A stretch of DNA of 64,000 nt from an uncultured Solibacteraceae bacterium (GTDB lineage Bacteria > Acidobacteriota > Vicinamibacteria > Vicinamibacterales > SCN-69-37). The stretch lies in contig CAZAZR010000004.1 of the NCBI GenBank assembly GCA_964489685.1, positions 2,428 through 66,427 of the forward strand. Reading direction: 5' to 3'. Both the position numbers and the translations under genes were made by a program. Numbering within the stretch: the first letter of the stretch is position 1; each line of letters begins with the position of its first letter. The notes under the pieces are model-generated. The model ran no database searches. It was not told where the DNA came from and saw nothing but the letters and a program-made list of their open reading frames with translations. This document shows, piece by piece, positions 37,499-56,133 of this stretch.

Positions 37499-37753
37499 GG
37501 GTCTCTCCCCTTCCGTCAGAACAAGGCCACTATAGCGCACGGGCGCGCCCAACGGAGCGCTGCTATGGGAAGACGGGGCCTCACACGAGACGTGAAGGTA
37601 TGCAGGTGCCTTTCCTGGCGCAGGAACGGATTAGAATGGGCGCCTCTTCATGCAACCCAAGCGGCTCGCGCCACCGACCGTCGCCGACATCGCGGCCTTC
37701 CCTGCTGATGCCGCGCCAGTCAGGGAACACCTGGAACGGGCGAAAGGCACGTT

Positions 37754-38458: not shown

Positions 38459-38560
38459 CGGGCTGCTGCAGAAGCATTCACACGCGGCATGAAGGCATTG
38501 TAGGTGCCGAGCCTCGGATCCTTCATGCCTCGTGTGGGGATCTTTGAGCAGGCTCTGAGA

Positions 38561-39517: not shown

Positions 39518-39554
39518 TGTTGGCGAAGGCTAGTATACGGCGTAGACTCGGCCC

Positions 39555-41003: not shown

Positions 41004-41017
41004 ACGGGAGTGAGCGA

Positions 41018-43263: not shown

Positions 43264-44588
43264 TGGGGAACAGTGGAAGCATGAGCGGCCCGGAAATGAT
43301 CGCGCTTTCCAAACGCCACACCATTTTCGAATGGTCCGCTCAGGGCGCGATGGATCCGATTCCGGTGGCGCGGGCCAGCGGCGTCTACTTCTACACCCCT
43401 GACGGCAAGCGGTACCTCGACTTCAACAGCCAGTTGATGTGCGTGAACATCGGTCACGGCGACGTCCGGGTCGTCAAGGCTATCGAAGCCCAACTTGCCG
43501 TGCTGCCGTACGCCAACCCCTTCATGGCCACAGAGTCGCGGGCGAAGCTGGGCGCGACACTGGCGGGTGTGACGCCCGGAGACATCGACTGCTTCTTCTT
43601 CACGAACGGTGGAGCCGAGGCCAATGAAAACGCGATCAAGATCGCGCGCGCGTACACCGGCCGCCAGAAAATCCTGGCGCGATATCGCTCGTATCACGGC
43701 GGCACGGCGGCGGCCATTGCCGTCACGGGCGATCCTCGACGATGGACCGAACCCCCGATGCCGGGCATCGTGCATGTCCTGCATCCGTACCACGGCATCG
43801 AACGGGGCTGGGAGTCGGCGGCCGAGGCCCTTGAGTATCTCGAGGAAGTCATCCAGCTCGAAGGGCCGAAACAGATCGCCGCATTTATCCTCGAGCCCAT
43901 TACCGGCACAAACGGCATTCTGATTCCGCCAGACGGCTACCTCGAAGGCGTTCGGGCCATTTGCGACAAGTACGGAATCCTCATGATCTGCGATGAGGTC
44001 ATGTCGGGATTTGGCCGCACTGGCGAGTGGTTCGCTGTTGATCACTGGAATGTCGTGCCCGACCTGATGACCATGGCGAAGGGGCTGACGAGCGCGTACG
44101 TCCCCCTGGGCGCCGTTGGCCTGCGCCGACACATCGCCGATCATTTCGCCGAGAGGGTGTTCCCGAGCGGCCTGACCTACAACAGTCACCCGCTGGGATG
44201 CGCTGCGGCACTGGCCACACTCGCGGTCTACGAAGAAGATGGCCTCATCGCCCGCGCGAAGGCACGGGGTGTGCTGATGCAGTCGCTGCTCGAGGACCTG
44301 GCGGCGAAGCACCCTTCGGTCGGCGCCGTTCGCTCCATCGGCCTGTTCGGCATTGTTGAACTTGTGCGCGACAGGGCGAAGAAGGTCCCACTGGCGCCCT
44401 TTGCCGGGTCGGCACCGGAAATGTCCGCACTCGGACGTTTCTTCAGAGACGAGGGGTTATACACATTCGTCCGGTGGAACTCGTTCTTCACGAATCCACC
44501 GTTGACGATCACCGAGGACGAGCTGCGCGAAGGCTTCGCGATTATCGATCGCGGCCTGGCAATCACGGATGCCGCAGTGCAAGACTAG
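43260..44588 (+). CDS. Class-III (omega) aminotransferase, probable beta-alanine/beta-aminoisobutyrate:pyruvate transaminase
   Basis: 442 aa. Contains 'DFNSQLMCVNIGHG', 'ILEPITGTNG', 'DEVMSGFGRTG' and 'MAKGLTSAY' (PLP Lys). The start is GTG 43260 or ATG 43263, overlapping the hydA stop. Confidence 0.8.
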   Translation: MMGNSGSMSGPEMIALSKRHTIFEWSAQGAMDPIPVARASGVYFYTPDGKRYLDFNSQLMCVNIGHGDVRVVKAIEAQLAVLPYANPFMATESRAKLGATLAGVTPGDIDCFFFTNGGAEANENAIKIARAYTGRQKILARYRSYHGGTAAAIAVTGDPRRWTEPPMPGIVHVLHPYHGIERGWESAAEALEYLEEVIQLEGPKQIAAFILEPITGTNGILIPPDGYLEGVRAICDKYGILMICDEVMSGFGRTGEWFAVDHWNVVPDLMTMAKGLTSAYVPLGAVGLRRHIADHFAERVFPSGLTYNSHPLGCAAALATLAVYEEDGLIARAKARGVLMQSLLEDLAAKHPSVGAVRSIGLFGIVELVRDRAKKVPLAPFAGSAPEMSALGRFFRDEGLYTFVRWNSFFTNPPLTITEDELREGFAIIDRGLAITDAAVQD

Positions 44589-44592
44589 TGGC

Positions 44593-45342
44593 ATGCGGCT
44601 ACTGACAGCAGTCTTCGCCCTTGTGGCGACGCTGCCCGGCCTCGCGATGGCGCAGCCACCCGATCCGCCTCGGGCTGAACTCGGCGTTCAGGTGTCCACA
44701 CAGACCGGGCAGGCACGTGCGGTCACGTGGTCTCCACAAATCACACTGAACCTCACGCCGATCACGGCGATTGAGGGCTCAGCGGACTTCCAGCTCGCGA
44801 GGACCGATCCCTTCGGCACGCGCACATCGGGGCGGGCGTTCAGTCTGCACTGGCGCCAGGCGCTGTTCACCTCGGGGCGCTGGCTGGTCTTCGGCGTGTT
44901 CGGCGCGGGCGACAGTCGGCAAGTCTTCGAGTTTCCGGAGCGGATCGTGGAAGGGCGTGACGGCCCCGAAATGTTCCCGGCGCAAAAGTACGTTGATACC
45001 GGTCTGGCCGTCCAGCTGGGACCGGCCGTGCAGTTCGAGGCTGCACCCTGGCTGGCGCTGCGCGGCGACCTGCGCCTCACTGCGGGCGACAACGGCGGAC
45101 TGCGGGGCATGGTGGGGGCAGTGGTTCCGGTCGGGCGCTTCCGCGCGGGCGACCGGCCGGGCGTGTCCAGTCAGACGCCGCCCCTGGCCGCCTGGCATCG
45201 TCTGAAGGCGGGACGCGAAGTGTGGGTCACCACCTCGTCTGGAGCGTTGGTGCACGGCGAGGTGTCAACGATTTCCGACCGCAGCCTCGGTGCGTTGCGC
45301 AAAACCGACTGGCCGGCTCACGTACGAGCCAGGTCGATATAG
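44593..45342 (+). CDS. Hypothetical exported protein (outer-membrane beta-barrel-like)
   Basis: Start trimmed to MRLLTAVFALVATLPGLAMAQ (signal peptide), followed by an alternating beta-strand pattern. The 3' end overlaps the convergent gene by 25 nt. Confidence 0.45.
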   Translation: MRLLTAVFALVATLPGLAMAQPPDPPRAELGVQVSTQTGQARAVTWSPQITLNLTPITAIEGSADFQLARTDPFGTRTSGRAFSLHWRQALFTSGRWLVFGVFGAGDSRQVFEFPERIVEGRDGPEMFPAQKYVDTGLAVQLGPAVQFEAAPWLALRGDLRLTAGDNGGLRGMVGAVVPVGRFRAGDRPGVSSQTPPLAAWHRLKAGREVWVTTSSGALVHGEVSTISDRSLGALRKTDWPAHVRARSI

Positions 45343-46547
45343 TTCGTCACCAGCAGGCCGGTCAGCACAATGAACAGCGTCAAGGCCAGCGCGCGGCGCT
45401 CGGCGAGCAGGTCCTGCACCTCGGGCTGGGCCAGCCAGAAGGCCAGACAAAACGCGGCTGGAAACAACAACCCGAAGTCGAACAGATACGGGTGAATCGA
45501 TACCGCCTGGGGAAACACGACGATCCAGAGGAGAGCTGGCGACCAGCAGAAGAGGAGCTGCCGGAACATGCGCGCGGCCAGAGGCCGAGCGAGCGCGAAG
45601 GTGCCGGCCGCCACGGCAGGGGCGGTTGCGATCAGCGGGTAGAAGCGCCAGTCTCTCCCACCTGCATCAAACGGGTGGGTCACGGCCTGAAGCATGGAGG
45701 TGAAGTACTGAGTGCCGCCATCGAGACCCGACCTGAAGAAGACGCTGCTCCCGATACCCCGCCAACCACCAAGCCACACCATCACGTACGGAATGACAAT
45801 GCCAAGGGCGATCAGGACGCCAAAGATGAGCCCTTGCGACCGCCAGCCCTCCCACCGTACGCCTGCAAACCTGGTCCCGCCCAATGGTGTGGCGAAGAAG
45901 ACAAGGGTGATAAACAGGCACGCGGCATACATCGGCGCAATGAGGGCGACGCCCACCACGGTGAGGAATCCCGCTCGGCCAAGCGGCCTTGCCTGAAAAT
46001 CGAGCACGCTGATGAACGCCACGCCGATTGCGGCGAGGAACCGGTGGTGGTCCTCAGGATTTCCGACGATCGAGGCCACCCAGAGCGAAGGCAGCGTGGC
46101 GACGACCGAGAAACCCAGCACGACCAGGGGAAACCAGATCATCCACATGGCCACAGGGTCGGTCGGGCTGTCGCGGTGCGACAGCGACAGCGCGGCTGAG
46201 ATCATCCACAACAGGACGCCGAAAGTCAGGAATACAACGACGTTCTGGCCGGTCGCATAGGGCACGCCCAGCCACGTCAGCGGCTTCATGAAGACATACA
46301 CAAACCCCAGCCACGCCGGAGTCAGATGCTGATAGGCGCGCCCGAGCGCCACATCCTCCGGGACGTTGAACGACAGTCCCAGATGGCGGGTGACAGACGT
46401 GTTATCCCAATAGCCAAACGTCGTCGGCAGCATGACGTACTCGCTTGGAGACGTGAGCGCGCGTCTCATACTGCCCAGCTGAAGGCCGAGACCTGCCGAC
46501 ACGAGACACGCGATCAGCACGAGGGCGGGCAGAGTCGCGCGTTTCAT
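45318..46547 (-). CDS. Polytopic membrane protein (about 10 helices; Wzy / GT-C-like role is possible but unsupported)
   Basis: 409 aa, strongly hydrophobic throughout, with no recognised motif. Sits at the edge of the glycosyltransferase/PqqD cluster. Confidence 0.55.
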   Translation of the reverse strand: MKRATLPALVLIACLVSAGLGLQLGSMRRALTSPSEYVMLPTTFGYWDNTSVTRHLGLSFNVPEDVALGRAYQHLTPAWLGFVYVFMKPLTWLGVPYATGQNVVVFLTFGVLLWMISAALSLSHRDSPTDPVAMWMIWFPLVVLGFSVVATLPSLWVASIVGNPEDHHRFLAAIGVAFISVLDFQARPLGRAGFLTVVGVALIAPMYAACLFITLVFFATPLGGTRFAGVRWEGWRSQGLIFGVLIALGIVIPYVMVWLGGWRGIGSSVFFRSGLDGGTQYFTSMLQAVTHPFDAGGRDWRFYPLIATAPAVAAGTFALARPLAARMFRQLLFCWSPALLWIVVFPQAVSIHPYLFDFGLLFPAAFCLAFWLAQPEVQDLLAERRALALTLFIVLTGLLVTNYIDLART

Positions 46548-46620: not shown

Positions 46621-47712
46621 TTGATGCGTCGAGACTGGCGGCCCGATGCACCACAGGAACTCCTGCTCCGTGCGGCCCTGTGCGAGACACCTGCCGCCCT
46701 GACGGCATGGCGCGAGTGGCAGGCCGCTGCCGACCACGATGGCCTGGACTGGGGTTCGCGACGGTTGCTGCCGCTCGTCCATGACAGTGTCGGGGAGCCG
46801 CAGGATCCGCAGACGTGGATCGAGAACCAGTTGCTCTTCCAGGAAACGGCATCGCTCGTCACCTTGCTGCGTGAGGTGGGTATTGAAGTCCTGGTGCTCA
46901 AGGGCGTTGCACTGGCTGTGCTCTACTACCAGGATGCCGCGCTCCGGCCGATGACCGACGTCGATCTGCTCGTGCGGCCCGAGGACGCCGGCAGGGCAAT
47001 CGCCGCGATGCTGGGAGCCGGGTGGACCACTCGTTACCGTGTTCCAGAACGCCTGATTCCGTTTGGGCGAACGGTGGAGCTTCGGAATGGCAACGGGACA
47101 CTCTGCGATTTACACTGGCGGGCATTCCGACAGGGACGGCATCGAGAAGATGACGATCTGTGGGAACGCGCGATCGGACTGGAAGTGGCGGGTACGGCTA
47201 CACACACGCTCGAAGCCGCAGACCAGTTGCTGCTGGTCTGTGTCCACGGCACGGACTGGAACGACATGCCCTCAATACGCTGGGTCGCTGATGCCACGAT
47301 GCTCATCCGCGCTCGTGTGGACTGGCCACGGGTCGTCGAGCACACACGAGGCCGACGCCTCATGCTGCAGATGGTCGATTCGCTGACGTATCTACAGCAC
47401 TTCGCGACCGTACCTGGCGCCGTACTGGACACGATTCGACGAATGCCCGTGACGCGCCTGGAACGCCTCGACTACCGGGCCCGAACCAGCCCGAATCCGG
47501 CGCTGCATTCGCTTCTGCTCGTGGCGTTCTGGGAACGGTGCTGGCGTGTTCTTCCGGAGCGCCGATTCGGGAGAAAGGTCACGGTGTTCCTGCGTTATTT
47601 GCAGTCGCTCTGGAACGTCGAGCACCTGTGGCAGACGCCGTTTCGGCTGTTCTACAAGTGCCTGGAAGTGTCGGGTCGGATGATCTTTCGATCCTCAGCC
47701 CGACATCTGTGA
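46621..47712 (+). CDS. Uncharacterised nucleotidyltransferase family protein (NTP_transf_5 / PF14907-like)
   Basis: 363 aa. 'VLVLKGVALAVLYYQDAALRPMTDVDLLVRPEDAGRAIAAMLGAGW' fits the family core (LKG...R...D.DLLV). Confidence 0.7.
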   Translation: MMRRDWRPDAPQELLLRAALCETPAALTAWREWQAAADHDGLDWGSRRLLPLVHDSVGEPQDPQTWIENQLLFQETASLVTLLREVGIEVLVLKGVALAVLYYQDAALRPMTDVDLLVRPEDAGRAIAAMLGAGWTTRYRVPERLIPFGRTVELRNGNGTLCDLHWRAFRQGRHREDDDLWERAIGLEVAGTATHTLEAADQLLLVCVHGTDWNDMPSIRWVADATMLIRARVDWPRVVEHTRGRRLMLQMVDSLTYLQHFATVPGAVLDTIRRMPVTRLERLDYRARTSPNPALHSLLLVAFWERCWRVLPERRFGRKVTVFLRYLQSLWNVEHLWQTPFRLFYKCLEVSGRMIFRSSARHL

Positions 47713-47832
47713 GAGTTGCCGCATGTTGCCATGGCGGGTGATCCGCGGCTTGCTCCAGACCTTCGCAGCTTTGGTTCCCGCACCAGCAACGGTGCCGGCT
47801 TTCGGTGTGCTTGGCTTGCCAGCTGGTTTCAT
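47695..47832 (-). CDS. Candidate small peptide gene (45 aa; possible RiPP-type or RRE-recognised peptide)
   Basis: Hand-translated as MKPAGKPSTPKAGTVAGAGTKAAKVWSKPRITRHGNMRQLSQMSG*. An AGGA lies 7 nt upstream of the ATG, and an in-frame TAG lies 4 codons upstream. It is below the 60-aa cutoff of the ORF track. Residues W26-x2-P-x-I-x3-G-x5-S-Q match the spacing of the lasso leader motif. Codon usage is atypical (several A/T-ending codons). Confidence 0.4.
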   Translation of the reverse strand: MKPAGKPSTPKAGTVAGAGTKAAKVWSKPRITRHGNMRQLSQMSG

Positions 47833-47846
47833 AAAATGATCCTAAC

Positions 47847-48983
47847 ATGCGAGGTCTAATCAGCACATGTCTCATCGTGCGCAACGAAGAACAGCTGCTT
47901 GCCAATTGTCTGGCGAGCGCGGCTCCTTTCTCTGATGAAATCGTCGTTGTGGATACCGGGTCCACGGATCGGACGCCGGATATCGCGCGGTCGTTCGGCG
48001 CGCGACTGATCCGCAAGTCCTGGATGAACTACAGCGATGCGCGCAGCACCTACATCGAAGCCGCACGATGCCGATGGATTCTCGTGCTCGACGCCGACGA
48101 AGCCATTGCCCCCAGGGACCACGGGGCCGTCGTCCGGCTTGCCAGAAGCCGGACGCCTATCGGCTACCGGCTCACGGTCAGGAACTACACCGACGAACAC
48201 GACCTCATGTGGCGATGGTTCCCCAACGATCGCCGCTATCTGAAGGAGGAACGGTTCTCGCAGTGTTCCGGCTGGATGAAGACTCGCGCGTTGCGCCTGT
48301 TTCGGAACCTGCCGGCTGTTCGCTACCAGGAGGGCCCCACGCCACATCCGACACCGCTCGAGTCGTTGAAGCAGCACCGAGGCCTGATTGAGGACTGCGA
48401 CGACGTCACGATCCACCATTTTCAGTACCTGAAGGGCGGCGCCAGATTCGTCGCCGCCAAACAACGTGAGCGCCTGAAGGGGGAACGCGCGCACCTGAAG
48501 CGCTTTCCCGGGCAGACGTACCCGTACCTCAACGTGGCCCGGACTCTCTTCGCAGAAGGCCGCGATGCCGAGGCGCTCAGGCACCTGAATCGGGCGCTGA
48601 AACACGACCCGGAGTTTCATGACGCCTGGCAGCTCCATGGGATGATCGACTTCGAAAACGGACGGTACCGGTCCGCCGAGCGGGCCCTGCGCCGTGCGAT
48701 TGCAATCGACCCCGGCTCTTCCGACGCCTGGGCGTTGCTCGGCATGGTGCTGGTGGACGCGGGCGAACCGGTTGCGGCCCGTGAGGCACTGCAGACAGCG
48801 ATCGGCCTCCACCCGGGCCACTTGCTCGCGCACAACTCGCTCGGCGTGCTCTATGAGGACCTCGGCCATCAGACCCGGGCGCGCCGGCAGTTCAGGACGG
48901 CCATGCGTCTCCACCCCGGATTCAGGCCAGCCTCTGCGAACCTGCGGCGCCTTGAGCGCTCTCTCGGGAAGACCCGCGCATGA
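47847..48983 (+). CDS. Family-2 glycosyltransferase fused to C-terminal TPR repeats
   Basis: N-terminal 'ISTCLIVRNEEQLLANCLASAAPFSDEIVVVDTGSTDRT' and 'LVLDADE' (DxD). The C-terminal ~130 aa form TPR-like repeats (DAWQLHGMIDFENGRY..., DAWALLGMVLVDAGE...). Confidence 0.8.
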   Translation: MRGLISTCLIVRNEEQLLANCLASAAPFSDEIVVVDTGSTDRTPDIARSFGARLIRKSWMNYSDARSTYIEAARCRWILVLDADEAIAPRDHGAVVRLARSRTPIGYRLTVRNYTDEHDLMWRWFPNDRRYLKEERFSQCSGWMKTRALRLFRNLPAVRYQEGPTPHPTPLESLKQHRGLIEDCDDVTIHHFQYLKGGARFVAAKQRERLKGERAHLKRFPGQTYPYLNVARTLFAEGRDAEALRHLNRALKHDPEFHDAWQLHGMIDFENGRYRSAERALRRAIAIDPGSSDAWALLGMVLVDAGEPVAAREALQTAIGLHPGHLLAHNSLGVLYEDLGHQTRARRQFRTAMRLHPGFRPASANLRRLERSLGKTRA

Positions 48984-50200
48984 CCCTGCGCCGACTGGCC
49001 GGCCGTTGGCTCCGACGGCTCGGCTGGAGGCGATCCACCGACAGACAGGCACCGCGCGTGCGAGCATCCGAACGCCTGCGCGACGTCCCGACGAAAGTCA
49101 CGATTCGAGACGATCGGACCCTCCTGGTTAACGGCGAGCCGTTTTTCCCGAACGGCCTGTATTACGCCAGAGACCAGATCGCGGATGCGAGTGGGGATGG
49201 CCTGCGCGCCTTGCGCGACATGGGATTCAACAGCGTCTTTGTGGATGGCGACATCGAGTCGGTCGATGACCTCGACCGCATCCATCGCGCGGGCTTGTAC
49301 GTCTGCTGTCGGCCTGGAGGACGCCTCTACAGCCAGTTCCAGCATCTAAAAACCATCGTCGCCATCTACGGGGCTCACCCGGCACTGCTCTTCTGGGAGA
49401 TGGACGATGAGCCGGTGCTCAATCATGTGCCGCTGGAGGAGACGAAGCAGGGTTGCCAACTGGTTCGCGCCATCGACCCGTTTCATCCTATTCTCTGCAA
49501 CCAGTGGCTCTCGACGATGGCTGAAGAGCAGGAGATGCGCGACTGGGGACAATTGGCTGACGTTTATGGCTTCAGTTGCTACCCGGTTCCCTCGGCGCGA
49601 TGGGGCAGCCGGATGCGGCTGGTCGAAGAGGGCTGGCCGCACTCGATCGCGGTGGTGGGCACGCAGACGAGGGCCTGGCGGTCATACGCCCCAGGCAAGC
49701 CCATCGTACCCGTGCTGCAGGCGTGGGCGTGGAACTGCCTCGAGGATGGCGACGCGGCGTATCCGTCGCTTCACGAGGCGCGCTTCATGACGTACCAGGC
49801 GGTCATTCAGGGTGCGAATGGCCTTCATCACTATGGCGTGGTCAATCCGACCCGGCCACATCTTGCTTGCGGCATCCCCCCGGTGCTGCGCGAGGACCTC
49901 GACCGTACCCACGCCGACTTCGAGGAGGCGCAGTGGCGCAACCGGATCTTCTGGACGTACTATTCGTCCGTGGTTGAGGAGATCGCGCGCATGGGCGCGG
50001 TGTTCACCTCACGCGACAGTGAATGGCGGCCAGGGCCCCTGCCCGCTTCCATTGAATATCGCGTGAAGCACCATGATGGGATGAACGTGATCCTGCTGGT
50101 GAACGCGTCGGCCGAACCGGTGGCGCTGCGGATTGAGGGCGTCACCGACGAGGTCGTCGAGGGGTTCGGCGTCAGGGTCTATTCAGGAGGAACACGGTGA
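48980..50200 (+). CDS. Hypothetical protein, TIM-barrel glycoside-hydrolase-like
   Basis: 406 aa. 'LVNGEPFFPNGLYY', 'GFNSVFV' and 'LLFWEMDDEP' resemble clan GH-A features ([ND]-E-P acid/base). ATGA overlap with the upstream gene. The assignment is tentative. Confidence 0.4.
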   Translation: MTLRRLAGRWLRRLGWRRSTDRQAPRVRASERLRDVPTKVTIRDDRTLLVNGEPFFPNGLYYARDQIADASGDGLRALRDMGFNSVFVDGDIESVDDLDRIHRAGLYVCCRPGGRLYSQFQHLKTIVAIYGAHPALLFWEMDDEPVLNHVPLEETKQGCQLVRAIDPFHPILCNQWLSTMAEEQEMRDWGQLADVYGFSCYPVPSARWGSRMRLVEEGWPHSIAVVGTQTRAWRSYAPGKPIVPVLQAWAWNCLEDGDAAYPSLHEARFMTYQAVIQGANGLHHYGVVNPTRPHLACGIPPVLREDLDRTHADFEEAQWRNRIFWTYYSSVVEEIARMGAVFTSRDSEWRPGPLPASIEYRVKHHDGMNVILLVNASAEPVALRIEGVTDEVVEGFGVRVYSGGTR

Positions 50201-50472
50201 TTCCGACGAAACACAGGCACGTGAAGTGGAAGAAGACCGGCTCAACCGGCGTGCTGTTGAATCTGGTGAGTGGTGACTATTACGAACTGGACGGCACTGC
50301 GATCGCGATCTGGAACGCCATCGATGGCCGGACGCCGGTGGCGGGGATCGTCAGAAAGATCGCGACCGCGTACCGTGTGGCGCCAAAGACCGTGGAAAAA
50401 GACGTGACGAGCTTCCTGGCGGCACTGCACAAACGAACACTCATTCAGTCGATCGGAGGGCACGGGCTTTAG
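50197..50472 (+). CDS. PqqD family protein (RRE-type peptide-binding chaperone), copy 1
   Basis: 91 aa with a GTG start overlapping the upstream stop (GTGA). 'VLLNLVSGDYYELDGTAIAIWNAIDGRTPVAGIVRKIATAY...VEKDVTSFLAALHKRTLI' fits the PqqD pattern. Confidence 0.75.
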   Translation: MIPTKHRHVKWKKTGSTGVLLNLVSGDYYELDGTAIAIWNAIDGRTPVAGIVRKIATAYRVAPKTVEKDVTSFLAALHKRTLIQSIGGHGL

Positions 50473-51185
50473 CCCGTACCATACCGGCGCCGAATGGCCT
50501 CGTCGCGGATCTTGTTGACGTCGCGATGCCAGTTCCGGTCGGTCTGCGTGAGGCTCGATGGGTGACGACGCCAGAGGTAGTAGACCTCTCCCCGCAGATA
50601 TTTGAAACGAGCCACCTCGGCCACTTTCATCCAGAGGCTCCAGTCATCCACTGAATACACCGACTCGTCATAGCCGCCAACCTGACGAACCAGAGCCGTG
50701 CGGCTCAATGACCCTGCGTGGTTGACGGTGTTTTCGACCAGGTCCCAGGCGGCATGGGCATCCTTGCCATGGATCGCGGCCGGTCCAAGCACTCGGTTCC
50801 TGCCGTCCGTCATGACCTCCAGCACCGCCCCATACACGACGCCAATCTTCGGATGTGCATCCAGGTAGTCACTGAGGCGTCGCAGGGCGCCCGGCAGCAA
50901 CAGGTCGTCGGCATCACAGGGCATCACGTATCGGCCGCGCGCAAGCGACAGCAGCCGGTTCCTGGTCGCGCCGGCGCCGCGGTTCGTGTCATTCCGAAAC
51001 AGCCGGACCTTCTCGTGTCCCGCATACTTCTGCAAGCGCTGCCACGTCGCATCGCACGACGCGTCGTCGACAATCAGGAGTTCGAAGGAGCCGAACTTCT
51101 GGGCCAGAACACTCTGAATGGCCTCGTCAATAAATGTCGCAGCATTAAACGCCGGCATCGCGATGGTGACCTTCATCCGCCCCAC
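50469..51185 (-). CDS. Family-2 glycosyltransferase
   Basis: 'VTIAMPAFNAATFIDEAIQSVLAQKFGSFELLIVDDASCDAT' and 'CDADD'. Overlaps the upstream asnB-like gene by 13 nt. Confidence 0.85.
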   Translation of the reverse strand: MGRMKVTIAMPAFNAATFIDEAIQSVLAQKFGSFELLIVDDASCDATWQRLQKYAGHEKVRLFRNDTNRGAGATRNRLLSLARGRYVMPCDADDLLLPGALRRLSDYLDAHPKIGVVYGAVLEVMTDGRNRVLGPAAIHGKDAHAAWDLVENTVNHAGSLSRTALVRQVGGYDESVYSVDDWSLWMKVAEVARFKYLRGEVYYLWRRHPSSLTQTDRNWHRDVNKIRDEAIRRRYGTG

Positions 51186-52888
51186 CTCCGCTGCCAGCTT
51201 TCGAACATGAACAGTGTCCAGAACTTGTACCCGTGCACACGCTCGAGCCGGTCGTGTTCGCGCTGCATCCGTTCGAGCATCATCATGTCGAACAACCCGC
51301 GTCGGCGCAGCGAATCACTGAACACCGTGTCGTAGACCATATCGCGCCACGGTCCCTTCTCCCAAAGCCACACGTCCATCGGAATGCTGAAGCCCTTCTT
51401 GGGACGCTGGAGGACCTCGCTCGGCAACATGTCTCTCATGGCTTCGCGCAGCAGGTACTTCCGGACGCCGCTGCGGACCTTCATCTGATCCGGAAGCCGC
51501 AGGGCGAACTGCGCAAGCTGGTGGTTGAGAAACGGCACCCGGAGTTCCAGTGAGTGCATCATCGAGACGCGGTCGGACTTGAGCAGGATGTCGGACGGCA
51601 GGTACGTCTTCAGATCGTCCAGGAGTGAGTGCTTGAGGGGCGAGAGTCCATGAGCCGGTGCGGGACGTCGCTTCGTCCGCCTCCACACTGACGCGTACAG
51701 CTGGTCGCGCTCCTCCCGGGTGAAGACCGCCCGCGATGGATGACCATCCGACCGGCGCGACCCGTGCCAGGGATACCCACCAAATAGCTCGTCAGCCCCT
51801 TCGCCTGACAACGCGGTCTTCACGACCTGACTCGCCGCCTGGCACACAGCGAACATCGGGATCGACGACGAATCTGCGAATGGCTCGTCAAAGTGTTCGA
51901 TCAATTGGAGCGCAATCTCAGTCGCCGTCGACTTCGTGACCAGAACCTCGTGGTGCCGTGTGCCGAACCGCTTCGCCACCAACCGCGCCCAGGGGCCCTC
52001 GTCGAAGTCGCCCTCTCGGAACGCCGCCGAAAACGTGTGCAGCCTGGTTTCACTCGCGCGCGAGGCGACCGCCGTGACCGTGCTCGAATCGAGTCCGCCG
52101 CTCAGTAACACACCGACCGGGACATCACTTCTCAGGCTGATGCGAACGCTTCGCTCGATCTCGTTCTGCAGTCGGGCCACCGGATTGGCGAGTGGCCTCC
52201 TGCTGGCAATTTCTGGCACCGGGTTCCAGTACCGCGTCTGCTTCACGCGGCCCCGCCTCACGGTCAGGACATGCCCTGGTGCAAGTTTGTGCACATGCCT
52301 GAACACCGTCTGCGGCTCCGGGAGCGCGAGTGTGCCGAAATAGCTGTCGAGGGCGCCCCGATCGAGTGCGCGATCCACACCGCGATATTGCAGCAGTGCC
52401 TTCAACTCCGAGGCGAACAGGAAGGCCGACTGGTCATGGTAGTAGTACAGCGGCTTCACGCCAAACCGATCGCGGGCGAGATACAACGAGTCGGCTGCCT
52501 CGTCCCAGATCGCGATCGCGAACATTCCCTCGAGGCGCAGAAAGCCGGCCACGCCCTCGGCCGCGAACAATCTCAGGATCACTTCCGTGTCGCTGCGGGA
52601 CACGAACTGGTGGCCCGACTCCTCGAGTTCGCAACGCAGTTCAACGTAGTTGTAGATTTCGCTGTTGGACACAAGGCGCAGGGGGCGGGGGCCCCGTAGT
52701 GTCATGGGCTGTGCGCCACCCGCCGCATCGATGATCGAGAGGCGCCGGTGCCCCAGGCCAACGGCGCCATCAAAATGAAACCGCTCATCGTCGGGCCCGC
52801 GGTGCGCGAGCGCGCGCGTCATCCGCCGCACAAGCGCGCGATCAACGGGCGTCGCATCGAACTTCACCTGACCGCTGATACCGCACAT
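51173..52888 (-). CDS. asnB: Asparagine synthase (glutamine-hydrolysing) family amidotransferase
   Basis: 571 aa. Intact N-terminal nucleophile MCGI, 'HRGPDD', 'RRLSIID' and the PP-loop 'LLSGGLDSS'. Confidence 0.85.
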   Translation of the reverse strand: MCGISGQVKFDATPVDRALVRRMTRALAHRGPDDERFHFDGAVGLGHRRLSIIDAAGGAQPMTLRGPRPLRLVSNSEIYNYVELRCELEESGHQFVSRSDTEVILRLFAAEGVAGFLRLEGMFAIAIWDEAADSLYLARDRFGVKPLYYYHDQSAFLFASELKALLQYRGVDRALDRGALDSYFGTLALPEPQTVFRHVHKLAPGHVLTVRRGRVKQTRYWNPVPEIASRRPLANPVARLQNEIERSVRISLRSDVPVGVLLSGGLDSSTVTAVASRASETRLHTFSAAFREGDFDEGPWARLVAKRFGTRHHEVLVTKSTATEIALQLIEHFDEPFADSSSIPMFAVCQAASQVVKTALSGEGADELFGGYPWHGSRRSDGHPSRAVFTREERDQLYASVWRRTKRRPAPAHGLSPLKHSLLDDLKTYLPSDILLKSDRVSMMHSLELRVPFLNHQLAQFALRLPDQMKVRSGVRKYLLREAMRDMLPSEVLQRPKKGFSIPMDVWLWEKGPWRDMVYDTVFSDSLRRRGLFDMMMLERMQREHDRLERVHGYKFWTLFMFESWQRRWGG

Positions 52889-52910: not shown

Positions 52911-53195
52911 GTGATGAGCAGCCTGCGTGGCCGTGTGCCGGCCAGAGGCGAATCGGTTCAGTGGCGTGAGTTCGGCGCAGAGGCCATCCTGCTCGACCCG
53001 GTGACCGGTCAGTTCGCACAAGTCAACGACTCAGGGATGGCCATCTGGGCCCGCATCGACGGGTGTCGAACGATCGAGGACATCGGCCGGGAGATCGCCG
53101 GGGAATGTGAAGTCGATCCAGCGGACATTGTGACGGACGTTCAGGCGTTCATCGATGACTTGGTCGACAAGCGCCTGCTCACACTCGCGTCATGA
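52911..53195 (+). CDS. PqqD family protein (RRE-type), copy 2
   Basis: 94 aa, starting at GTG 52911 or ATG 52914. 'AILLDPVTGQFAQVNDSGMAIWARIDGCRTIEDIGREIAGECEVDPADIVTDVQAFIDDLVDKRLL'. Confidence 0.75.
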   Translation: MMSSLRGRVPARGESVQWREFGAEAILLDPVTGQFAQVNDSGMAIWARIDGCRTIEDIGREIAGECEVDPADIVTDVQAFIDDLVDKRLLTLAS

Positions 53196-54136
53196 CCGAC
53201 GCCTTCCGCATCGCCGGCGTGGAGATTCACGTCGAGACGGACGACGGCGCGCTCCGCGCACTGGTCATGACACATTGGGAGCCCTTTGCCGTTGGCCGCG
53301 CAGGCCGGCGCAAGCCCGGCGCCATCTTCCGTTTTACCGACCACGGTGGTCCGACGCTGTCCCGCCTGAAGACCTGGGCCTCCTTCTCGAACGACCGGGT
53401 CATCTTCCTCACCGACGGGAAGCGCTACCTCCTGACGGGCTATTGCTATGACCGTCCGTGGCAATTCGATTGCCGATCGCTGCCGGCGTGGAACGCCGAT
53501 TTCGTTTATTACTACGTCTTCGAACCGGTGTTGCACGACGTGCTGAAGCGCCTGGGTGTGCTCGCCTGGCACTGCGCGGCACTGGAGCGAGGGGGGGCCG
53601 CAGCCCTTCTTCCTGGAGTATCGGGCAGTGGAAAATCCACCACCACCCTCAACCTGCTCACCTGCGGGTTCCGCTTTATGGCTGACGACGCGGCGTTCTT
53701 GCGAGTGAAGGGGCGAACGCTGGAGGTATTCGGGCTCGACACGGGCGTCTATGTGACGGAGCGGTCGTTGCGCCTGCTGCCAGAGTGGCGTCCATCCGTT
53801 CTACCCGGCCGGCATCGAAAGGGTCGGCAATGGAAATACCACGTGAACCTGACAGATCGACGATCGAAGCGCCGTTCGCCGCCTATCGTGAAGTACTTGT
53901 TGTTCCCGCGAATTGCAGAAGGCCTCACCACGAGGATCGAGAGGCTCACACCAGCTGAGGCCCTGCTCGAGTGTCTGAAGCAGACGCCCAAGGAGTTCCC
54001 CTCGTCGCTCATCGGACCAGCGGCCGTCGAGGCACAGTTCGAGATCTATTCCCTCCTCTCGCGTTCAGCCGCCGCTTATCGAGTGCATCTGGGCTCCGAT
54101 CAGGATGGAGTTCGGACCGCACTCTCGCGCCTCTGA
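53192..54136 (+). CDS. HPr-kinase-like (HprK-related) P-loop kinase
   Basis: 314 aa. 'HCAALERGGAAALLPGVSGSGKSTTTLNLLTCGFRFMADDAAFL' matches the HprK C-terminal catalytic-domain pattern. ATGA overlap with the PqqD gene. Confidence 0.7.
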   Translation: MTDAFRIAGVEIHVETDDGALRALVMTHWEPFAVGRAGRRKPGAIFRFTDHGGPTLSRLKTWASFSNDRVIFLTDGKRYLLTGYCYDRPWQFDCRSLPAWNADFVYYYVFEPVLHDVLKRLGVLAWHCAALERGGAAALLPGVSGSGKSTTTLNLLTCGFRFMADDAAFLRVKGRTLEVFGLDTGVYVTERSLRLLPEWRPSVLPGRHRKGRQWKYHVNLTDRRSKRRSPPIVKYLLFPRIAEGLTTRIERLTPAEALLECLKQTPKEFPSSLIGPAAVEAQFEIYSLLSRSAAAYRVHLGSDQDGVRTALSRL

Positions 54137-55227
54137 TGAGCGTGCCCATTCTGTTCGAGATCCATCCCGCCACCTTTGGCGGCACCGAACGTTTTCTCTC
54201 GCTGCTGCTTCCACGCCTGGACCGGCGCCGCTTTGCGCCCATGGTGATTGCACCGCGAGCCGGTGCGCCTCTCGCACGTATTGCGGCCCTCGGAGTACCG
54301 ACCGTGGTCGTCGAGCACTATTTCTCGCAACGCGGCATCCGGGCGATTGCGAGCGTCATCCGGGAACACCGAATCGGCCTGGTGCAGTCGAACTACTACG
54401 CCTCACACCTGGCGATGGCGGCCAACCTCGCGGAGGTGCCACACATCTGGCGCCTGGGCGGGCACGTCGGCGTTGGCAGCGGCGCGAGCAGCGTCGCGGA
54501 CGAACATTTGACGCTCAAGATGATTCAACTGCTTTCACAGGTGGTCGTCTGCAACTCCCAGTTCATCCGCCACCAGTTCGGCCGCGCCAAGGCGTCGGTC
54601 CAGGTCATTCCGAACGGCGTCGAGATTCCCCCTGTTCGACCAGGGCGCAACCGGCAGGGACCGTACCGGATCGGCATGATTGCCCACTTCACGGCACAGA
54701 AGCGGCATGAGGACTTCATCGAGGCGGCCGCCGCGGTTGCCTCCGGGCGCGACGACGTGACGTTCACGATCCTCGGTCGCGAGTATGCACACGGCGAGAG
54801 CCGCCGCTATGCGGCCCGGATGCGGCGCCTTGCTCGCGACGTGCCTCGAGTGACCCTGGGCGAGTTCTCCGACGGCCACGCGGCTCGAGATTTCGACATC
54901 CTTGTGCTGCCGTCGATCGGCGAGAGTCACAGCAATGCCGTGCTCGAGGCCATGGCGGCGGGCGTGCCCGTCGTTGCTGCCCGATCGGGCGGTAACGCTG
55001 AGTTGGTGCGGCACAAGGTAACGGGCCTTCTGGTCGCTCCGCAGCATCCTCAGGCGCTGGCCAAGGCTGTGATCGCCCTCCTTGATGCCCCGTCAACGCG
55101 TCAGGCCATGGGTGCGGCTGCCCGTACAGATGCGCGTGACAGGTTCTCGATTGGCGGCTGCGTCAGGCGGTATGAGAATCTCTATCGCACGATCCTGCGA
55201 GGGACACTCCCTACGGCCGAATCGTGA
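54136..55227 (+). CDS. Family-4 (GT-B) glycosyltransferase
   Basis: Start trimmed to MSVPILFEI (TGATG overlap with the kinase stop). N-terminal 'FGGTERF' and the C-terminal 'LPSIGESHSNAVLEAMAAGVPVVAARSGGNAELV' EX7E region. Confidence 0.85.
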   Translation: MSVPILFEIHPATFGGTERFLSLLLPRLDRRRFAPMVIAPRAGAPLARIAALGVPTVVVEHYFSQRGIRAIASVIREHRIGLVQSNYYASHLAMAANLAEVPHIWRLGGHVGVGSGASSVADEHLTLKMIQLLSQVVVCNSQFIRHQFGRAKASVQVIPNGVEIPPVRPGRNRQGPYRIGMIAHFTAQKRHEDFIEAAAAVASGRDDVTFTILGREYAHGESRRYAARMRRLARDVPRVTLGEFSDGHAARDFDILVLPSIGESHSNAVLEAMAAGVPVVAARSGGNAELVRHKVTGLLVAPQHPQALAKAVIALLDAPSTRQAMGAAARTDARDRFSIGGCVRRYENLYRTILRGTLPTAES

Positions 55228-55911: not shown

Positions 55912-56133
55912 ATGCACATCGTAGGGCGACGAACCGTGGACGGCCACGCCCTCGCCGACCAGGGGGCGCTCGCCAGGACGGCGGCGTTGCTGCGCGGCAC
56001 CTCGGCGATCGTGCCTCGGGGCGTGTACCGATTCTCCAGCTTCGACGAGGCCGACACGTGGATGACCAACGCGATTCGGAGTACGCACGAGCGCCTGAGC
56101 CGGCCGACCTCCTCCGCCTCTGTCGGGCGCTGA
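55912..56133 (+). CDS. Small hypothetical protein
   Basis: 73 aa. The segment 'VPRGVYRFSSFDEADTWM' resembles a small conserved protein I recall seeing in other genomes. Overlaps the next ORF by 76 nt in another frame. Confidence 0.4.
   Translation: MHIVGRRTVDGHALADQGALARTAALLRGTSAIVPRGVYRFSSFDEADTWMTNAIRSTHERLSRPTSSASVGR

What the first reader, a model, noticed from the sequence alone, without database searches (positions are those of the whole stretch)
47695..47832. Unannotated 45-codon ORF whose C-terminal half matches the lasso-leader RRE recognition motif, followed by only three residues
My hand translation of the minus strand gives MKPAGKPSTPKAGTVAGAGTKAAKVWSKPRITRHGNMRQLSQMSG*. The sequence shows an ATG at 47830-47832, an AGGA 7 nt upstream, and an in-frame TAG four codons upstream that fixes the start. 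The stop is TGA at 47695-47697, so the ORF overlaps the convergent nucleotidyltransferase gene by 18 nt. It lies 14 bp from the GT2-TPR start.

The segment W26-S-K-P29-R-I31-T-R-H-G35-N-M-R-Q-L-S41-Q42 has exactly the spacing of the conserved lasso leader motif Y-x2-P-x-L-x3-G-x5-T-x that PqqD-type RREs bind (W for Y, I for L, S for T). In a lasso precursor a 15-25-aa core would follow. Here only M-S-G follows, and the peptide has no Asp or Glu at all (net charge about +9), so a macrolactam ring is impossible.

Three readings are possible:
- A scaffold peptide whose C-terminal tripeptide (with Ser44 as a kinase target and the Gly45 carboxylate as an amidotransferase target) is the modified unit.
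- A Lys/Pro/Thr-rich N-terminal 'core' with a C-terminal follower/recognition sequence.
- A leader-only decoy or regulator.

Caveats: the ORF is short, uses several rare A/T-ending codons, and the motif match could be chance (a rough estimate is about 1e-4 per aromatic residue).
Basis: partly seen in the sequence, partly recalled or inferred. Interest (0 to 1): 0.8.

Follow-up and report, generated by a model that had tools for sequence, protein, structure and literature searches.

The report
Conserved lasso-leader-like mini precursor peptide
The 45-codon ORF is a real, strongly conserved small gene whose product looks like the "leader" of a lasso-peptide precursor followed by only 2-3 more residues, and it always sits beside a peptide-type glycosyltransferase, a peptide-type kinase and PqqD chaperones, so it is probably the substrate of an undescribed peptide-modification pathway in soil Acidobacteria.

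Summary
The ORF at 47695-47832 (-) exists exactly as described and is a real gene. I recovered about 27 homologues (35-55 aa) from metagenomes. Each has a variable, Lys-rich N-terminus followed by a nearly invariant C-terminus, [WY]xKP[RK]ITRHGNMRQ[LI][ST]Q-M-S-(G/A/none)-stop. In the conserved block, 16 of 19 third codon positions vary while the amino acids do not, which shows purifying selection on the protein. In 12 of 12 loci where both genes are visible, the peptide gene lies head-to-head with an orthologous GT2-TPR gene. The AlphaFold model of that GT2-TPR protein best matches the peptide glycosyltransferases SunS and ThuS.

A ten-gene core is conserved: the peptide, a SunS-like GT2-TPR, a soluble GH-like protein, two PqqD proteins, GT2, GT4, a glutamine-dependent AsnB, an HPr-kinase homologue and NTP_transf_5. 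There is no lasso cyclase and no B2 protease.

The only curated families the peptides touch are lasso precursors, through the leader part and below cutoff. A distant relative carries a 10-residue core after the same "TQ", which fixes the leader/core boundary.

Best reading, inferred and not shown: a RiPP-like substrate whose C-terminal Ser is phosphorylated and/or glycosylated. This would be a new variant of known RiPP chemistry. No literature match was found.

The parts
47695..47832 (-). Small peptide gene (45 aa plus stop): the candidate precursor or substrate peptide.
   Evidence: Translation. Homologue family. Codon-level purifying selection. Conserved synteny.
47840..47843 (-). Shine-Dalgarno-like AGGA, 7 nt before the ATG.
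   Evidence: Purine-rich SD-like stretches also lie upstream of most homologues.
47758..47832 (-). Codons 1-25: a variable, Lys-rich (about 25% K), low-complexity N-terminal tail. Its composition and positive charge are conserved, but its sequence is not.
47707..47757 (-). Codons 26-42 (WSKPRITRHGNMRQLSQ): a lasso-type leader / RRE recognition motif (Y/W-xx-P-x-L/I-xxx-G-xxxxx-T/S-x). It is nearly invariant across the family.
   Evidence: The leader/core boundary after T/S-Q is supported by the L103 relative.
47698..47706 (-). Codons 43-45 (M-S-G): a mini 'core'. Ser44 is conserved in every member, at core position 2 or 3, and is the proposed modification site.
   Evidence: Precedent for Ser phosphorylation by HPr-kinase homologues in PMC8498205 and PMC10368454.
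47847..47983 (+). 5' part of the GT2-TPR gene, which must also hold the promoter region of the divergent peptide gene, since the intergenic gap is only 14 bp.
   Evidence: Geometry. The sigma-70 consensus scan found nothing. This part is inferred only.
47847..48983 (+). GT2-TPR glycosyltransferase with SunS/ThuS-like architecture and an invariant DxD motif. It lies head-to-head with the peptide gene in all loci.
   Evidence: Pfam. TIGR04195 SunS model at 1e-9, below cutoff. AF2 model with pLDDT 93. Foldseek top hits are SunS and ThuS, E 1.5e-15, TM 0.62-0.70. Invariant D82/D84/E85.
48980..50200 (+). Protein X (406 aa): a soluble clan GH-A TIM-barrel glycosidase-like protein specific to this system, translationally coupled to the GT2-TPR and PqqD-1 genes.
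   Evidence: No Pfam hit. About 40 homologues only. GH158 at E 9e-10. AF2 pLDDT 89.9. GH35/GH5/GH158 folds. No TM segment or signal peptide.
50197..50472 (+). PqqD-1 (RRE-type chaperone): always basic, with its best NCBIfam matches to lasso B1 proteins.
50469..51185 (-). GT2 glycosyltransferase.
51173..52888 (-). Glutamine-hydrolysing asparagine-synthase-type amidotransferase with an intact MCGI N-terminus. It is not a lasso cyclase.
   Evidence: TIGR01536 scores 494, above its cutoff of 267; the lasso cyclase model scores 265, below its cutoff of 525. N-terminus.
52911..53195 (+). PqqD-2 (RRE-type chaperone): always acidic, translationally coupled to the kinase. It is the proposed binder of the basic peptide.
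53192..54136 (+). HPr-kinase homologue (peptide-kinase type).
   Evidence: 27% identity over 220 aa to BsfK, with the H...GxSGxGKST...ADD motif conserved.
54136..55227 (+). GT4 glycosyltransferase.
46621..47712 (+). NTP_transf_5 (PF14907) nucleotidyltransferase, convergent with the peptide gene and overlapping it by 18 nt.
   Evidence: Putative or predicted nucleotidyltransferase genes sit in phosphorylated lasso peptide clusters (bsfN, psmN), and PsmN attaches hexoses to the phosphorylated peptide (PMC8498205, PMC10368454). Whether those enzymes are PF14907 members was not checked.
45318..46547 (-). Polytopic membrane protein (about 10 TM segments). It is present in only some loci (window, L095, L099, probably L101) and is an optional accessory.

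Best explanation
The ORF encodes a real 45-residue peptide that serves as the ribosomal substrate (precursor or scaffold) of a conserved, fully soluble ten-gene modification pathway in Acidobacteriota.

The peptide has three parts:
- a disordered polycationic N-terminal tail;
- a lasso-type leader motif (W26-Q42);
- a 2-3-residue 'core' (M-S-G).

Proposed mechanism, with shown and inferred steps kept apart:
1. Shown by comparative sequence analysis: the peptide is translated and under strong purifying selection, and it is genetically locked to the cluster.
2. Inferred: the leader motif is bound by a PqqD-type RRE. The most likely binder is the acidic PqqD-2, which is translationally coupled to the kinase.
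3. Inferred by homology to PadeK/BsfK: the HPr-kinase homologue phosphorylates the conserved C-terminal-proximal Ser44.
4. Inferred from the fold match to SunS/ThuS and from the invariant head-to-head gene pairing: the GT2-TPR enzyme glycosylates the peptide directly on a Ser/Thr hydroxyl. In addition or instead, the NTP_transf_5 enzyme may add hexose to the phosphoserine, as PsmN does in pseudomycoidin.
5. Speculative: GT2 and GT4 extend the glycan, the GH-like protein X remodels or trims it, and the AsnB-type amidotransferase amidates a carboxylate (a uronic acid or the peptide C-terminus). Loci that encode an ABC exporter export the product.

No leader protease or cyclase is conserved, so the product probably keeps the whole peptide. 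It is not a lasso peptide.
For: Real gene:
- There are 22 database homologues plus 5 uncalled ones with a nearly invariant C-terminus.
- 16 of 19 third codon positions vary, against 6 of 19 first and 4 of 19 second positions.
- SD-like sequences lie upstream of most members. There is no Rfam match.

Linkage to the cluster:
- The peptide gene is divergent from orthologous GT2-TPR in 12 of 12 loci.
- A ten-gene core is conserved at 32-83% identity.
- In L102 the peptide forms an operon with the kinase and GT4.
- Eighty paralogue loci gave zero hits.

Leader nature:
- Only lasso precursor models are hit, and through their leader part.
- The family resembles the BsfA leader, with 5 of 5000 shuffles scoring as well.
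- L103 carries the same leader followed by a 10-aa core, in a cluster with a B2-like Transglut_core3 domain.

Kinase:
- The catalytic motif of lasso-precursor kinases is conserved.
- Such kinases phosphorylate the C-terminal Ser, or Ser3 of the core, and an RRE accelerates the reaction (PMC8498205; PMC10368454).

Glycosyltransferase:
- SunS and ThuS are the best structural matches. ThuS O-glycosylates Ser (PMC10373908).

Charge complementarity:
- The peptide carries +5 to +12, PqqD-2 carries -6 to -11, and PqqD-1 carries +6 to +13, in every locus examined.

Soluble pathway:
- No TM segments, priming GT, flippase or polymerase occur in the conserved core. This fits a peptide acceptor rather than a lipid acceptor.
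Against: - There is no direct evidence of translation, binding or modification.
- GC3 of the ORF is low at 0.65.
- The window's own peptide gives no hit to the lasso precursor models. The hits from other members are weak, at most 18 bits against a cutoff of 33.
- In BsfA, alanine replacement of the YxxPxL residues did not abolish phosphorylation (PMC10368454), so the motif need not be what the kinase system reads.
- L102 has no PqqD within 14.5 kb, so an RRE is not obligatory for the family.
- Any GT-A+TPR protein may retrieve SunS/ThuS as the only solved proteins with this architecture, so the fold match does not prove a peptide acceptor.
- AsnB scores best against EPS-type amidotransferases (TIGR03108), and three GTs plus a GH also fit an ordinary glycan pathway.
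- Most members have Ser penultimate rather than C-terminal. Paeninodin-type kinases were reported to prefer a C-terminal Ser.
Confidence: 0.6

Rival explanations
1. Follower-type architecture. The conserved C-terminus is purely a recognition (follower) sequence. The variable Lys/Thr/Ser/Ala-rich N-terminal 23-29 residues are the real 'core', multiply O-glycosylated in a mucin-like way by the three glycosyltransferases.
For: 'Conserved recognition part plus hypervariable part' is the usual RiPP leader/core pattern. Every member has 1-7 Ser/Thr in the N-terminal tail. Three GTs and a GH are present. SunS/ThuS-like enzymes act on internal residues of their substrates.
Against: - Lasso-type RREs present the residues C-terminal to the motif.
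- The last residues (Q-M-S) are as conserved as the motif itself, and a Ser at core position 2-3 is universal.
- Some tails have only 1-2 Ser/Thr (P0144, P0146, P0130, P0142).
- Tail length and sequence vary freely, with no conserved sequon.
- L103 has a very short N-terminus and a C-terminal core.
Confidence: 0.13
2. Leader-only adaptor or regulator. The peptide is not modified. It binds the PqqD proteins and/or the TPR domain and acts in trans as an allosteric activator, assembly factor or decoy for enzymes that build a glycan on another acceptor.
For: Relative to lasso_cyano, the peptide ends at the leader/core junction. AsnB and the GTs resemble EPS-type enzymes. Extreme conservation fits a multi-partner binding peptide.
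Against: - No other acceptor-priming enzyme (lipid-phosphate GT), flippase or polymerase is in the conserved core, and all core proteins are soluble.
- The conserved Ser sits next to a kinase of the peptide-kinase type.
- The head-to-head partner resembles peptide glycosyltransferases.
- Some loci have a McjD-like ABC exporter.
Confidence: 0.12
3. Scaffold (carrier) peptide for a released small product. A phospho-sugar or oligosaccharide is assembled on the C-terminal Ser and then cleaved off, for example by the GH-like protein X, and the peptide is recycled. This would be analogous to pearlin-type or mycofactocin-type pathways, in which only the C-terminal residues end up in a small molecule.
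For: The core is 2-3 residues. PqqD-type RREs occur in the PQQ and mycofactocin pathways. A soluble system-specific GH-fold protein is translationally coupled to PqqD-1. PqqD-1 is basic, so it could handle an anionic intermediate.
Against: There is no protease, radical SAM or other releasing enzyme in the core set. No precedent for such chemistry was found in the searched literature. This explanation is entirely inferential.
Confidence: 0.12
4. Chance ORF in a promoter or terminator-containing intergenic region, with no gene.
For: GC3 is low at 0.65. The ORF is antisense to the flanking co-directional genes and overlaps one of them. It was called in only 3 of 6 assemblies.
Against: A protein-level conservation pattern runs across about 27 sequences and 12 syntenic loci. 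There is no RNA family match.
Confidence: 0.02

Closest known systems
Phosphorylated / phosphoglycosylated lasso peptide systems (paeninodin PadeA-PadeK; Bradymonas BsfA-BsfB1-BsfK-BsfN; pseudomycoidin PsmA-PsmK-PsmN)
   Same: - The leader motif is Y/W-xx-P-x-L/I with T/S at -2.
- A discrete PqqD RRE is present.
- The HPr-kinase homologue has the same catalytic motif.
- A nucleotidyltransferase gene sits in the cluster (here PF14907; the family of BsfN/PsmN was not checked).
- The Ser target lies at the C-terminus or just after the leader junction.
- Some loci have a McjD-like ABC exporter.
   Different: - There is no lasso cyclase. AsnB keeps its glutaminase Cys and scores below the cyclase cutoff.
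- There is no B2 protease.
- The core is only 2-3 residues with no Asp/Glu, so no macrolactam or threading is possible.
- There are two PqqD proteins of opposite charge.
- Extras are a SunS-like GT, GT2, GT4 and a GH-like protein.
Glycocins (sublancin SunA/SunS, thurandacin ThuA/ThuS)
   Same: The enzyme encoded next to the peptide gene has the GT-A plus helical-repeat architecture of SunS/ThuS, and ThuS O-glycosylates Ser.
   Different: - The peptide has no Cys, no helical hairpin or disulfide core, and no double-Gly leader or C39 exporter.
- Sequence identity to SunS is only 18-20%, and the TIGR04195 score of 37.7 is far below its cutoff of 350.
- Glycocin clusters lack PqqD, HprK and AsnB.
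PQQ and mycofactocin pathways (PqqA/PqqD; MftA/MftB/MftF)
   Same: A short precursor is recognised by a PqqD-type RRE. The chemistry is confined to the last few C-terminal residues. Mycofactocin is further glycosylated by a GT2 (own knowledge). The W-x-K-P start of the motif resembles PqqA (own knowledge).
   Different: There is no radical SAM enzyme or peptidase, and no Glu/Tyr or Val-Tyr C-terminus. The GT2 hit to MftF models is generic (1e-14, far below cutoff).
HprK-related kinase / PqqD pairs defined in TIGRFAMs/NCBIfam (HprK_rel_A TIGR04352; SynChlorMet ScmC-ScmD)
   Same: An adjacent, translationally coupled PqqD-HprK-like gene pair. PqqD-2 scores best against ScmD and the kinase scores best against HprK_rel_A.
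   Different: Scores are far below the cutoffs (55.8 against 200; 47 against 100). To my knowledge no substrate peptide has been described for those systems. No paper using the name was found.
Asparagine-synthetase-like enzymes acting on RiPP C-termini (TsrC, ScdTA amidation; PesC nitrile formation)
   Same: An AS-like enzyme with ATP- and Gln-dependent chemistry sits in a RiPP-like cluster. The peptide's only carboxylate, in the window's clade, is its C-terminus (PMC13060819).
   Different: There is no evidence that this AsnB acts on the peptide. Its best family match is the EPS-type XrtA/PEP-CTERM amidotransferase.

Membership tests
Lasso peptide precursor / lasso BGC | Leader with the Y-xx-P-x-L-xxx-G-xxxxx-T-x motif recognised by a PqqD-type RRE. 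| tested here: met
   W26, P29, I31, G35 and S/T41 are conserved family-wide. Weak hits go only to lasso precursor models, in their leader part. The resemblance to the BsfA leader gives p of about 0.001 by shuffling. Two PqqD genes score 66 and 61 bits, above the Pfam cutoff of 23.4.
Lasso peptide precursor / lasso BGC | Core of about 15-25 residues with Asp/Glu at position 7-9 for macrolactam formation. | tested here: not met
   Only M-S-G (2-4 residues across the family) follows the T/S-Q junction, with no acidic residue.
Lasso peptide precursor / lasso BGC | Lasso cyclase (an AS-like enzyme above the NF033535/NF033561 cutoffs). | tested here: not met
   NF033535 scores 265 bits against a cutoff of 525, and NF033561 scores 92 against 300. 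The true AsnB model TIGR01536 scores 494 against 267. The nucleophile Cys2 (MCGI) is intact.
Lasso peptide precursor / lasso BGC | B2 leader peptidase (transglutaminase-core, PF13471). | tested here: not met
   No such domain was found in any ORF of the window cluster or of L087, L088, L095, L097, L099 or L101. It occurs only in the distant L103 cluster.
NCBIfam lasso precursor families (NF033528 lasso_cyano, NF033534 rhodolasso) | Score at or above the curated cutoff (33 and 30 bits). | tested here: not met
   The best score is 18.2 bits. The window peptide itself gives no hit at E<=10.
HPr-kinase-homologue peptide kinases of RiPP clusters (PadeK/BsfK type) | Conserved motif H...G-x-S-G-x-G-K-S...D-D (H148, G163, G166, G168, K169, S170, D186, D187 in BsfK). 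| tested here: met
   BLASTP alignment to BsfK gives 27% identity over 220 aa, E 4e-5. It aligns WHCAAL with LHGSAV, GVSGSGKST with GRSGAGKST, and MADD with LADD.
HPr-kinase-homologue peptide kinases of RiPP clusters (PadeK/BsfK type) | Phosphorylates a Ser of the precursor peptide. | not testable with these tools
   A conserved Ser at core position 2-3 is present in all members. There is no biochemical test.
Glycocin S/O-glycosyltransferases (SunS family, TIGR04195) | Sequence score at or above the family cutoff. | tested here: not met
   37.7 bits against a cutoff of 350. Only the N-terminal GT-A part matches.
Glycocin S/O-glycosyltransferases (SunS family, TIGR04195) | GT-A domain followed by a helical-repeat substrate-binding domain (SunS/ThuS fold). 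| tested here: met
   The AF2 model has pLDDT 93. The Foldseek top six hits are all SunS/ThuS chains, E 1.5e-15 to 1.7e-14, with TMq 0.62-0.64 and TMt up to 0.70. The DxD motif is invariant.
HprK-related kinase A system (TIGR04352) / SynChlorMet cassette (ScmC, ScmD) | Scores above the curated cutoffs for the kinase and the PqqD partner. | tested here: not met
   HprK_rel_A scores 55.8 against 200, ScmC 28.3 against 125, and ScmD 47.1 against 100.
Wzx/Wzy- or synthase-type polysaccharide locus | Membrane-embedded priming glycosyltransferase, flippase/polymerase or synthase in the conserved gene set. | tested here: not met
   None was found among the ten conserved genes, all of which are predicted soluble. 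A 10-TM protein of unknown family is present in only some loci.

The most novel reading that the evidence does not exclude
This is the founding member of an undescribed RiPP class. A lasso-derived leader has lost its lasso core and machinery, and now acts as a cytoplasmic carrier. On the carrier's C-terminal Ser, a kinase, a nucleotidyltransferase, a SunS-like GT, two further GTs, a GH-fold enzyme and an amidotransferase assemble a phospho-oligosaccharide. The two oppositely charged PqqD chaperones hand the peptide over before and after it acquires anionic groups. The product is either an exported polycationic phosphoglycopeptide or a glycan released from a recycled scaffold.
Probability: 0.25. 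Interest if true: 0.85.

Novelty: new variant of a known kind. Interest (0 to 1): 0.68.

Why it matters
If the inference holds, it shows three things:
- A lasso-type leader/RRE recognition module has been reused outside lasso biosynthesis to direct phosphorylation and glycosylation of a 2-3-residue core.
- It names a concrete substrate for an orphan combination of PqqD, HPr-kinase-like and PF14907 genes. That combination recurs in genomes with, to my knowledge, no described peptide partner.
- It adds Acidobacteriota, a phylum with few characterised RiPPs, as a source of a compact and fully soluble ten-gene pathway.

The pathway can be tested directly by co-expression and mass spectrometry. The family is small and its C-terminus is invariant, so one synthetic 20-mer would serve for binding and enzyme assays across all members.

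Tried and rejected
- The genome-contig scan with the GT2-TPR alignment returned only distant paralogues (at most 41% identity). Those 80 loci later served as a negative control.
- The metagenome-contig scan with the peptide alignment found only 6 loci.
- Pfam and NCBIfam gave nothing above cutoff for the peptide. The few weak Pfam hits to individual members (DUF5544, UL135 and others) look like noise.
- Rfam gave no match in the region or in the whole window.
- The sigma-70 and terminator consensus scans found nothing. This says little for Acidobacteria.
- PDB sequence searches for NTP_transf_5 gave no hit, and for the kinase only marginal HprK hits.
- Literature searches for the HprK/PqqD/nucleotidyltransferase combination outside lasso peptides found nothing. 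The library holds only open-access papers and preprints.
- I considered a true lasso precursor and rejected it, because there is no cyclase, no B2 and no acidic core residue.
- I considered a PqqA or mycofactocin precursor and rejected it, because there is no radical SAM.
- I considered an ordinary EPS locus with a chance ORF and rejected it, because of the protein-level conservation and the soluble gene set.
Full report
**Observation.** The minus-strand ORF at 47695-47832 reads MKPAGKPSTPKAGTVAGAGTKAAKVWSKPRITRHGNMRQLSQMSG*.
- AGGA lies 7 nt upstream of the ATG, and an in-frame TAG lies four codons upstream.
- The ORF overlaps the convergent PF14907 gene by 18 nt.
- It lies 14 bp from the divergent GT2-TPR start.

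The window has 64.5% G+C. The ORF's GC3 is 0.65, against about 0.8 in neighbouring genes, so composition does not argue for coding. The window is a metagenomic contig. Six public assemblies carry a 99.95-100% identical region, and gene callers called the 45-aa ORF in three of them.

**Gene context.**
- 45318-46547 (-): a membrane protein with about 10 TM segments.
- 46621-47712 (+): NTP_transf_5 (PF14907).
- 47695-47832 (-): the peptide gene.
- 47847-48983 (+): GT2-TPR.
- 48980-50200 (+): protein X, with no Pfam hit.
- 50197-50472 (+): PqqD-1.
- 50469-51185 (-): GT2.
- 51173-52888 (-): AsnB.
- 52911-53195 (+): PqqD-2.
- 53192-54136 (+): an HPr-kinase homologue.
- 54136-55227 (+): GT4.

AsnB is a genuine glutamine-hydrolysing enzyme. 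TIGR01536 scores 494 bits against a cutoff of 267, and the N-terminus is MCGI. It falls well below the lasso-cyclase cutoffs. No transglutaminase-type B2 protease is present.

**The ORF is a real, conserved gene.**
- An exhaustive phmmer search of 1.84 billion representative proteins found three small homologues.
- A profile search of 5.8 billion clusters raised this to 21.
- HMM searches of fetched loci added five uncalled copies.
- All members are 35-55 aa. Each has a variable, Lys-rich (25% K), low-complexity N-terminus and a nearly invariant C-terminus, [WY]-x-K-P-[RK]-I-T-R-H-G-N-M-R-Q-[LI]-[ST]-Q-M-S-(G/A/none)-stop.
- Across 11 loci, 16 of 19 third codon positions in the conserved block vary, against 6 of 19 first and 4 of 19 second positions. 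The three invariant third positions belong to two ATG codons and one GGC codon. This is the signature of selection on the protein in this frame, not on DNA or RNA.
- Rfam finds nothing.
- SD-like purine runs precede most starts.

**Synteny.**
- In every locus where the neighbour is visible, the peptide gene is head-to-head with an ortholog of the GT2-TPR gene. These are the window, L087, L088, L090, L093, L095, L097, L099, L100, L101, L102 and L103, with GT2-TPR identity down to 39%.
- tblastn shows a ten-gene core in all sufficiently long loci of the main clade: peptide, NTP_transf_5, GT2-TPR, X, PqqD-1, GT2, AsnB, PqqD-2, kinase and GT4.
- L087, L099 and L101 add a McjD-type ABC exporter after PqqD-1.
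- L102 is a minimal version in which peptide, kinase and GT4 form one operon divergent from GT2-TPR, with no PqqD in 14.5 kb.
- Eighty loci with only distant GT2-TPR paralogues gave no peptide hit at E<=1.
- Protein X has only about 40 homologues in the whole collection, all without Pfam domains. Several come from contigs of the same lengths as those carrying the peptide or GT2-TPR homologues.
- Source names on homologues point to Acidobacteriota, specifically Blastocatellia.

**What the peptide resembles.**
- The conserved columns are exactly those of the lasso leader motif: Y(-17) xx P(-14) x L(-12) xxx G(-8) xxxxx T(-2) x. Here they are W26, P29, I31, G35 and S/T41, with Q42 at -1.
- Against 18,950 NCBIfam models at E<=10, the family touches only lasso precursor families. 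These are lasso_cyano (16 of 22 members, best E 0.0018) and rhodolasso (4 of 22).
- The alignments cover profile positions 2-24 of 35, which is the leader up to the core junction.
- All scores are below the curated cutoffs, and the window's own peptide gives no hit. This is resemblance, not membership.
- The experimentally studied precursor BsfA (PMC10368454) has ...YKKPQLTYHSTLAAIIR|GTS..., against the family's WKKPRITRHGNMRQLTQ|MS. Its score against the family HMM is reached by 5 of 5000 shuffles.
- The distant L103 peptide, MKNKRKYTTPQIKLRGNLRLMTQ-LCPVEKKRKN, has the same leader followed by a 10-residue Cys-containing core. Its cluster holds B12-radical-SAM enzymes and a radical-SAM/Transglut_core3 (B2-like) fusion.
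- The L103 peptide supports placing the leader/core boundary after T/S-Q. The window's core is therefore M-S-G.
- A Ser at core position 2 or 3 occurs in every member: MS, MSG, MSA, TSPA, NSG, LS or AAS.

**The enzymes.**
- *Kinase.* It aligns with BsfK at 27% identity over 220 residues and keeps the H...GxSGxGKST...ADD motif defined for lasso-precursor kinases. Those kinases phosphorylate the C-terminal Ser of precursors (paeninodin), or Ser3 of the core (BsfA). BsfB1, the RRE, strongly accelerates the BsfA reaction. In pseudomycoidin, the cluster's nucleotidyltransferase adds one or two hexoses to the phosphate (PMC8498205; PMC10368454).
- *GT2-TPR.* The AlphaFold model (pLDDT 93) has as its six best PDB matches the glycocin peptide glycosyltransferases SunS and ThuS, with E 1.5e-15 and TM 0.62-0.70. 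ThuS also O-glycosylates Ser (PMC10373908). The DxD motif is invariant.
- *Protein X.* It models confidently (pLDDT 89.9) as a clan GH-A TIM barrel with a C-terminal beta-sandwich, resembling GH158, GH35 and GH5. It has no signal peptide.
- *Solubility.* All ten core proteins are predicted soluble, and the core contains no priming GT, flippase or polymerase. This fits a soluble peptide acceptor better than a lipid-linked polysaccharide pathway.
- *The two PqqD proteins.* They differ systematically. PqqD-1 is basic (+6 to +13) and PqqD-2 is acidic (-6 to -11) in every locus, while the peptide is always strongly basic at +5 to +12. I infer that PqqD-2, which is translationally coupled to the kinase, binds the unmodified peptide.

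**Mechanism.**
- Shown: the gene is real, it is under protein-level selection, and it is locked to the cluster.
- Inferred by homology: the leader motif is captured by an RRE, Ser44 is phosphorylated by the HPr-kinase homologue, and the peptide is glycosylated by the SunS-like GT and/or on the phosphate by NTP_transf_5.
- Speculative: GT2 and GT4 extend the glycan, protein X remodels it, and AsnB amidates either a sugar acid or the peptide C-terminus. AS-like enzymes do amidate RiPP C-termini (TsrC, ScdTA, PesC; PMC13060819). Some loci would then export the product by an ABC transporter.
- No leader protease is conserved, so the product probably retains the whole polycationic peptide.

Rivals are a follower-type peptide glycosylated in its N-terminal tail, an unmodified leader-only adaptor, and a recycled scaffold from which a small glycan is released. 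None is excluded.

**Comparison and novelty.** The system works like the tailoring half of phosphorylated lasso-peptide clusters combined with a glycocin-type glycosyltransferase. It fails the defining tests of both families:
- It has no cyclase, no B2 and no macrolactam-capable core.
- It has no Cys or hairpin core, and no SunS-family score.

No Pfam or NCBIfam family covers the peptide. The searchable literature holds no description of such a cluster. That library is limited to open-access papers and preprints, so absence is not proof. I rate it a new variant of a known kind (an RRE-dependent RiPP-like pathway), with a 0.25 chance that it represents a distinct class.

Noticed in passing
L103:9815-9931 (-) and L103:8474-21158: A distant relative of the peptide (MKNKRKYTTPQIKLRGNLRLMTQLCPVEKKRKN) has the same leader and a 10-residue Cys-containing core. 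It also lies head-to-head with a GT2-TPR gene. Its cluster holds three radical-SAM genes (two with a B12-binding domain, one of those fused to a B2-like Transglut_core3 domain), PqqD, GT2, GT4 and AsnB. It looks like a separate uncharacterised RiPP cluster type that uses the same leader family.
   Followed up: partly
L102:2732-6218: A minimal version of the system. The peptide (MPKKEKESKSRGQKESYKKPMISKRGNLRLITQLS), the HprK-like kinase and GT4 form one operon divergent from GT2-TPR. No PqqD, AsnB or NTP_transf_5 lies on the 14.5-kb contig, which suggests the RRE is dispensable in some relatives.
   Followed up: partly
window 50197-50472 and 52911-53195 (and orthologues in L087-L101): The two PqqD paralogues have opposite net charge in every locus (PqqD-1 +6 to +13; PqqD-2 -6 to -11). 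This is unexplained. It might reflect handling of the cationic peptide before and after anionic modification.
   Followed up: partly
window 34941-44588: This gene set looks like a reductive pyrimidine or beta-amino-acid catabolism cluster. It comprises an NCS1 nucleobase symporter, a PreA-like dihydropyrimidine dehydrogenase subunit, an aldehyde dehydrogenase, a CN-hydrolase, an amidohydrolase (dihydropyrimidinase-like) and a class-III aminotransferase. It is conserved next to the peptide cluster in L095 but not in more distant loci, so it is probably unrelated.
   Followed up: partly
window 45318-46547 (-): A 409-aa protein with about 10 predicted TM segments and no Pfam or NCBIfam match. It has homologues beside NTP_transf_5 in L095 (81%) and L099 (29%), and a similarly placed 403-aa gene exists in L101. 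It could be an accessory exporter or a GT-C-like enzyme of the system.
   Followed up: partly
window about 56058-56552 (+) and 57837-60629 (+): A short AbiEii-domain ORF (164 aa in public gene calls) has no obvious AbiEi partner. There is also a 930-aa Ser/Thr protein kinase with PD40/Tricorn-like beta-propeller repeats. A similar kinase lies near the cluster in L101.
   Followed up: no
L095:2575-4591: In the closest NCBI genome (GCA_963853495.1), the kinase and GT4 genes appear truncated or split (261 aa; 177 + 111 aa). This reflects either frameshift errors in the assembly or decay of the pathway in that strain, while the peptide gene is intact.
   Followed up: no
L088:11677-14411: A third PqqD gene with two small ORFs (46 and 70 aa) lies next to a PQQ-repeat dehydrogenase just beyond the cluster. 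I did not examine whether it is a genuine pqq remnant or another RRE-peptide pair.
   Followed up: no
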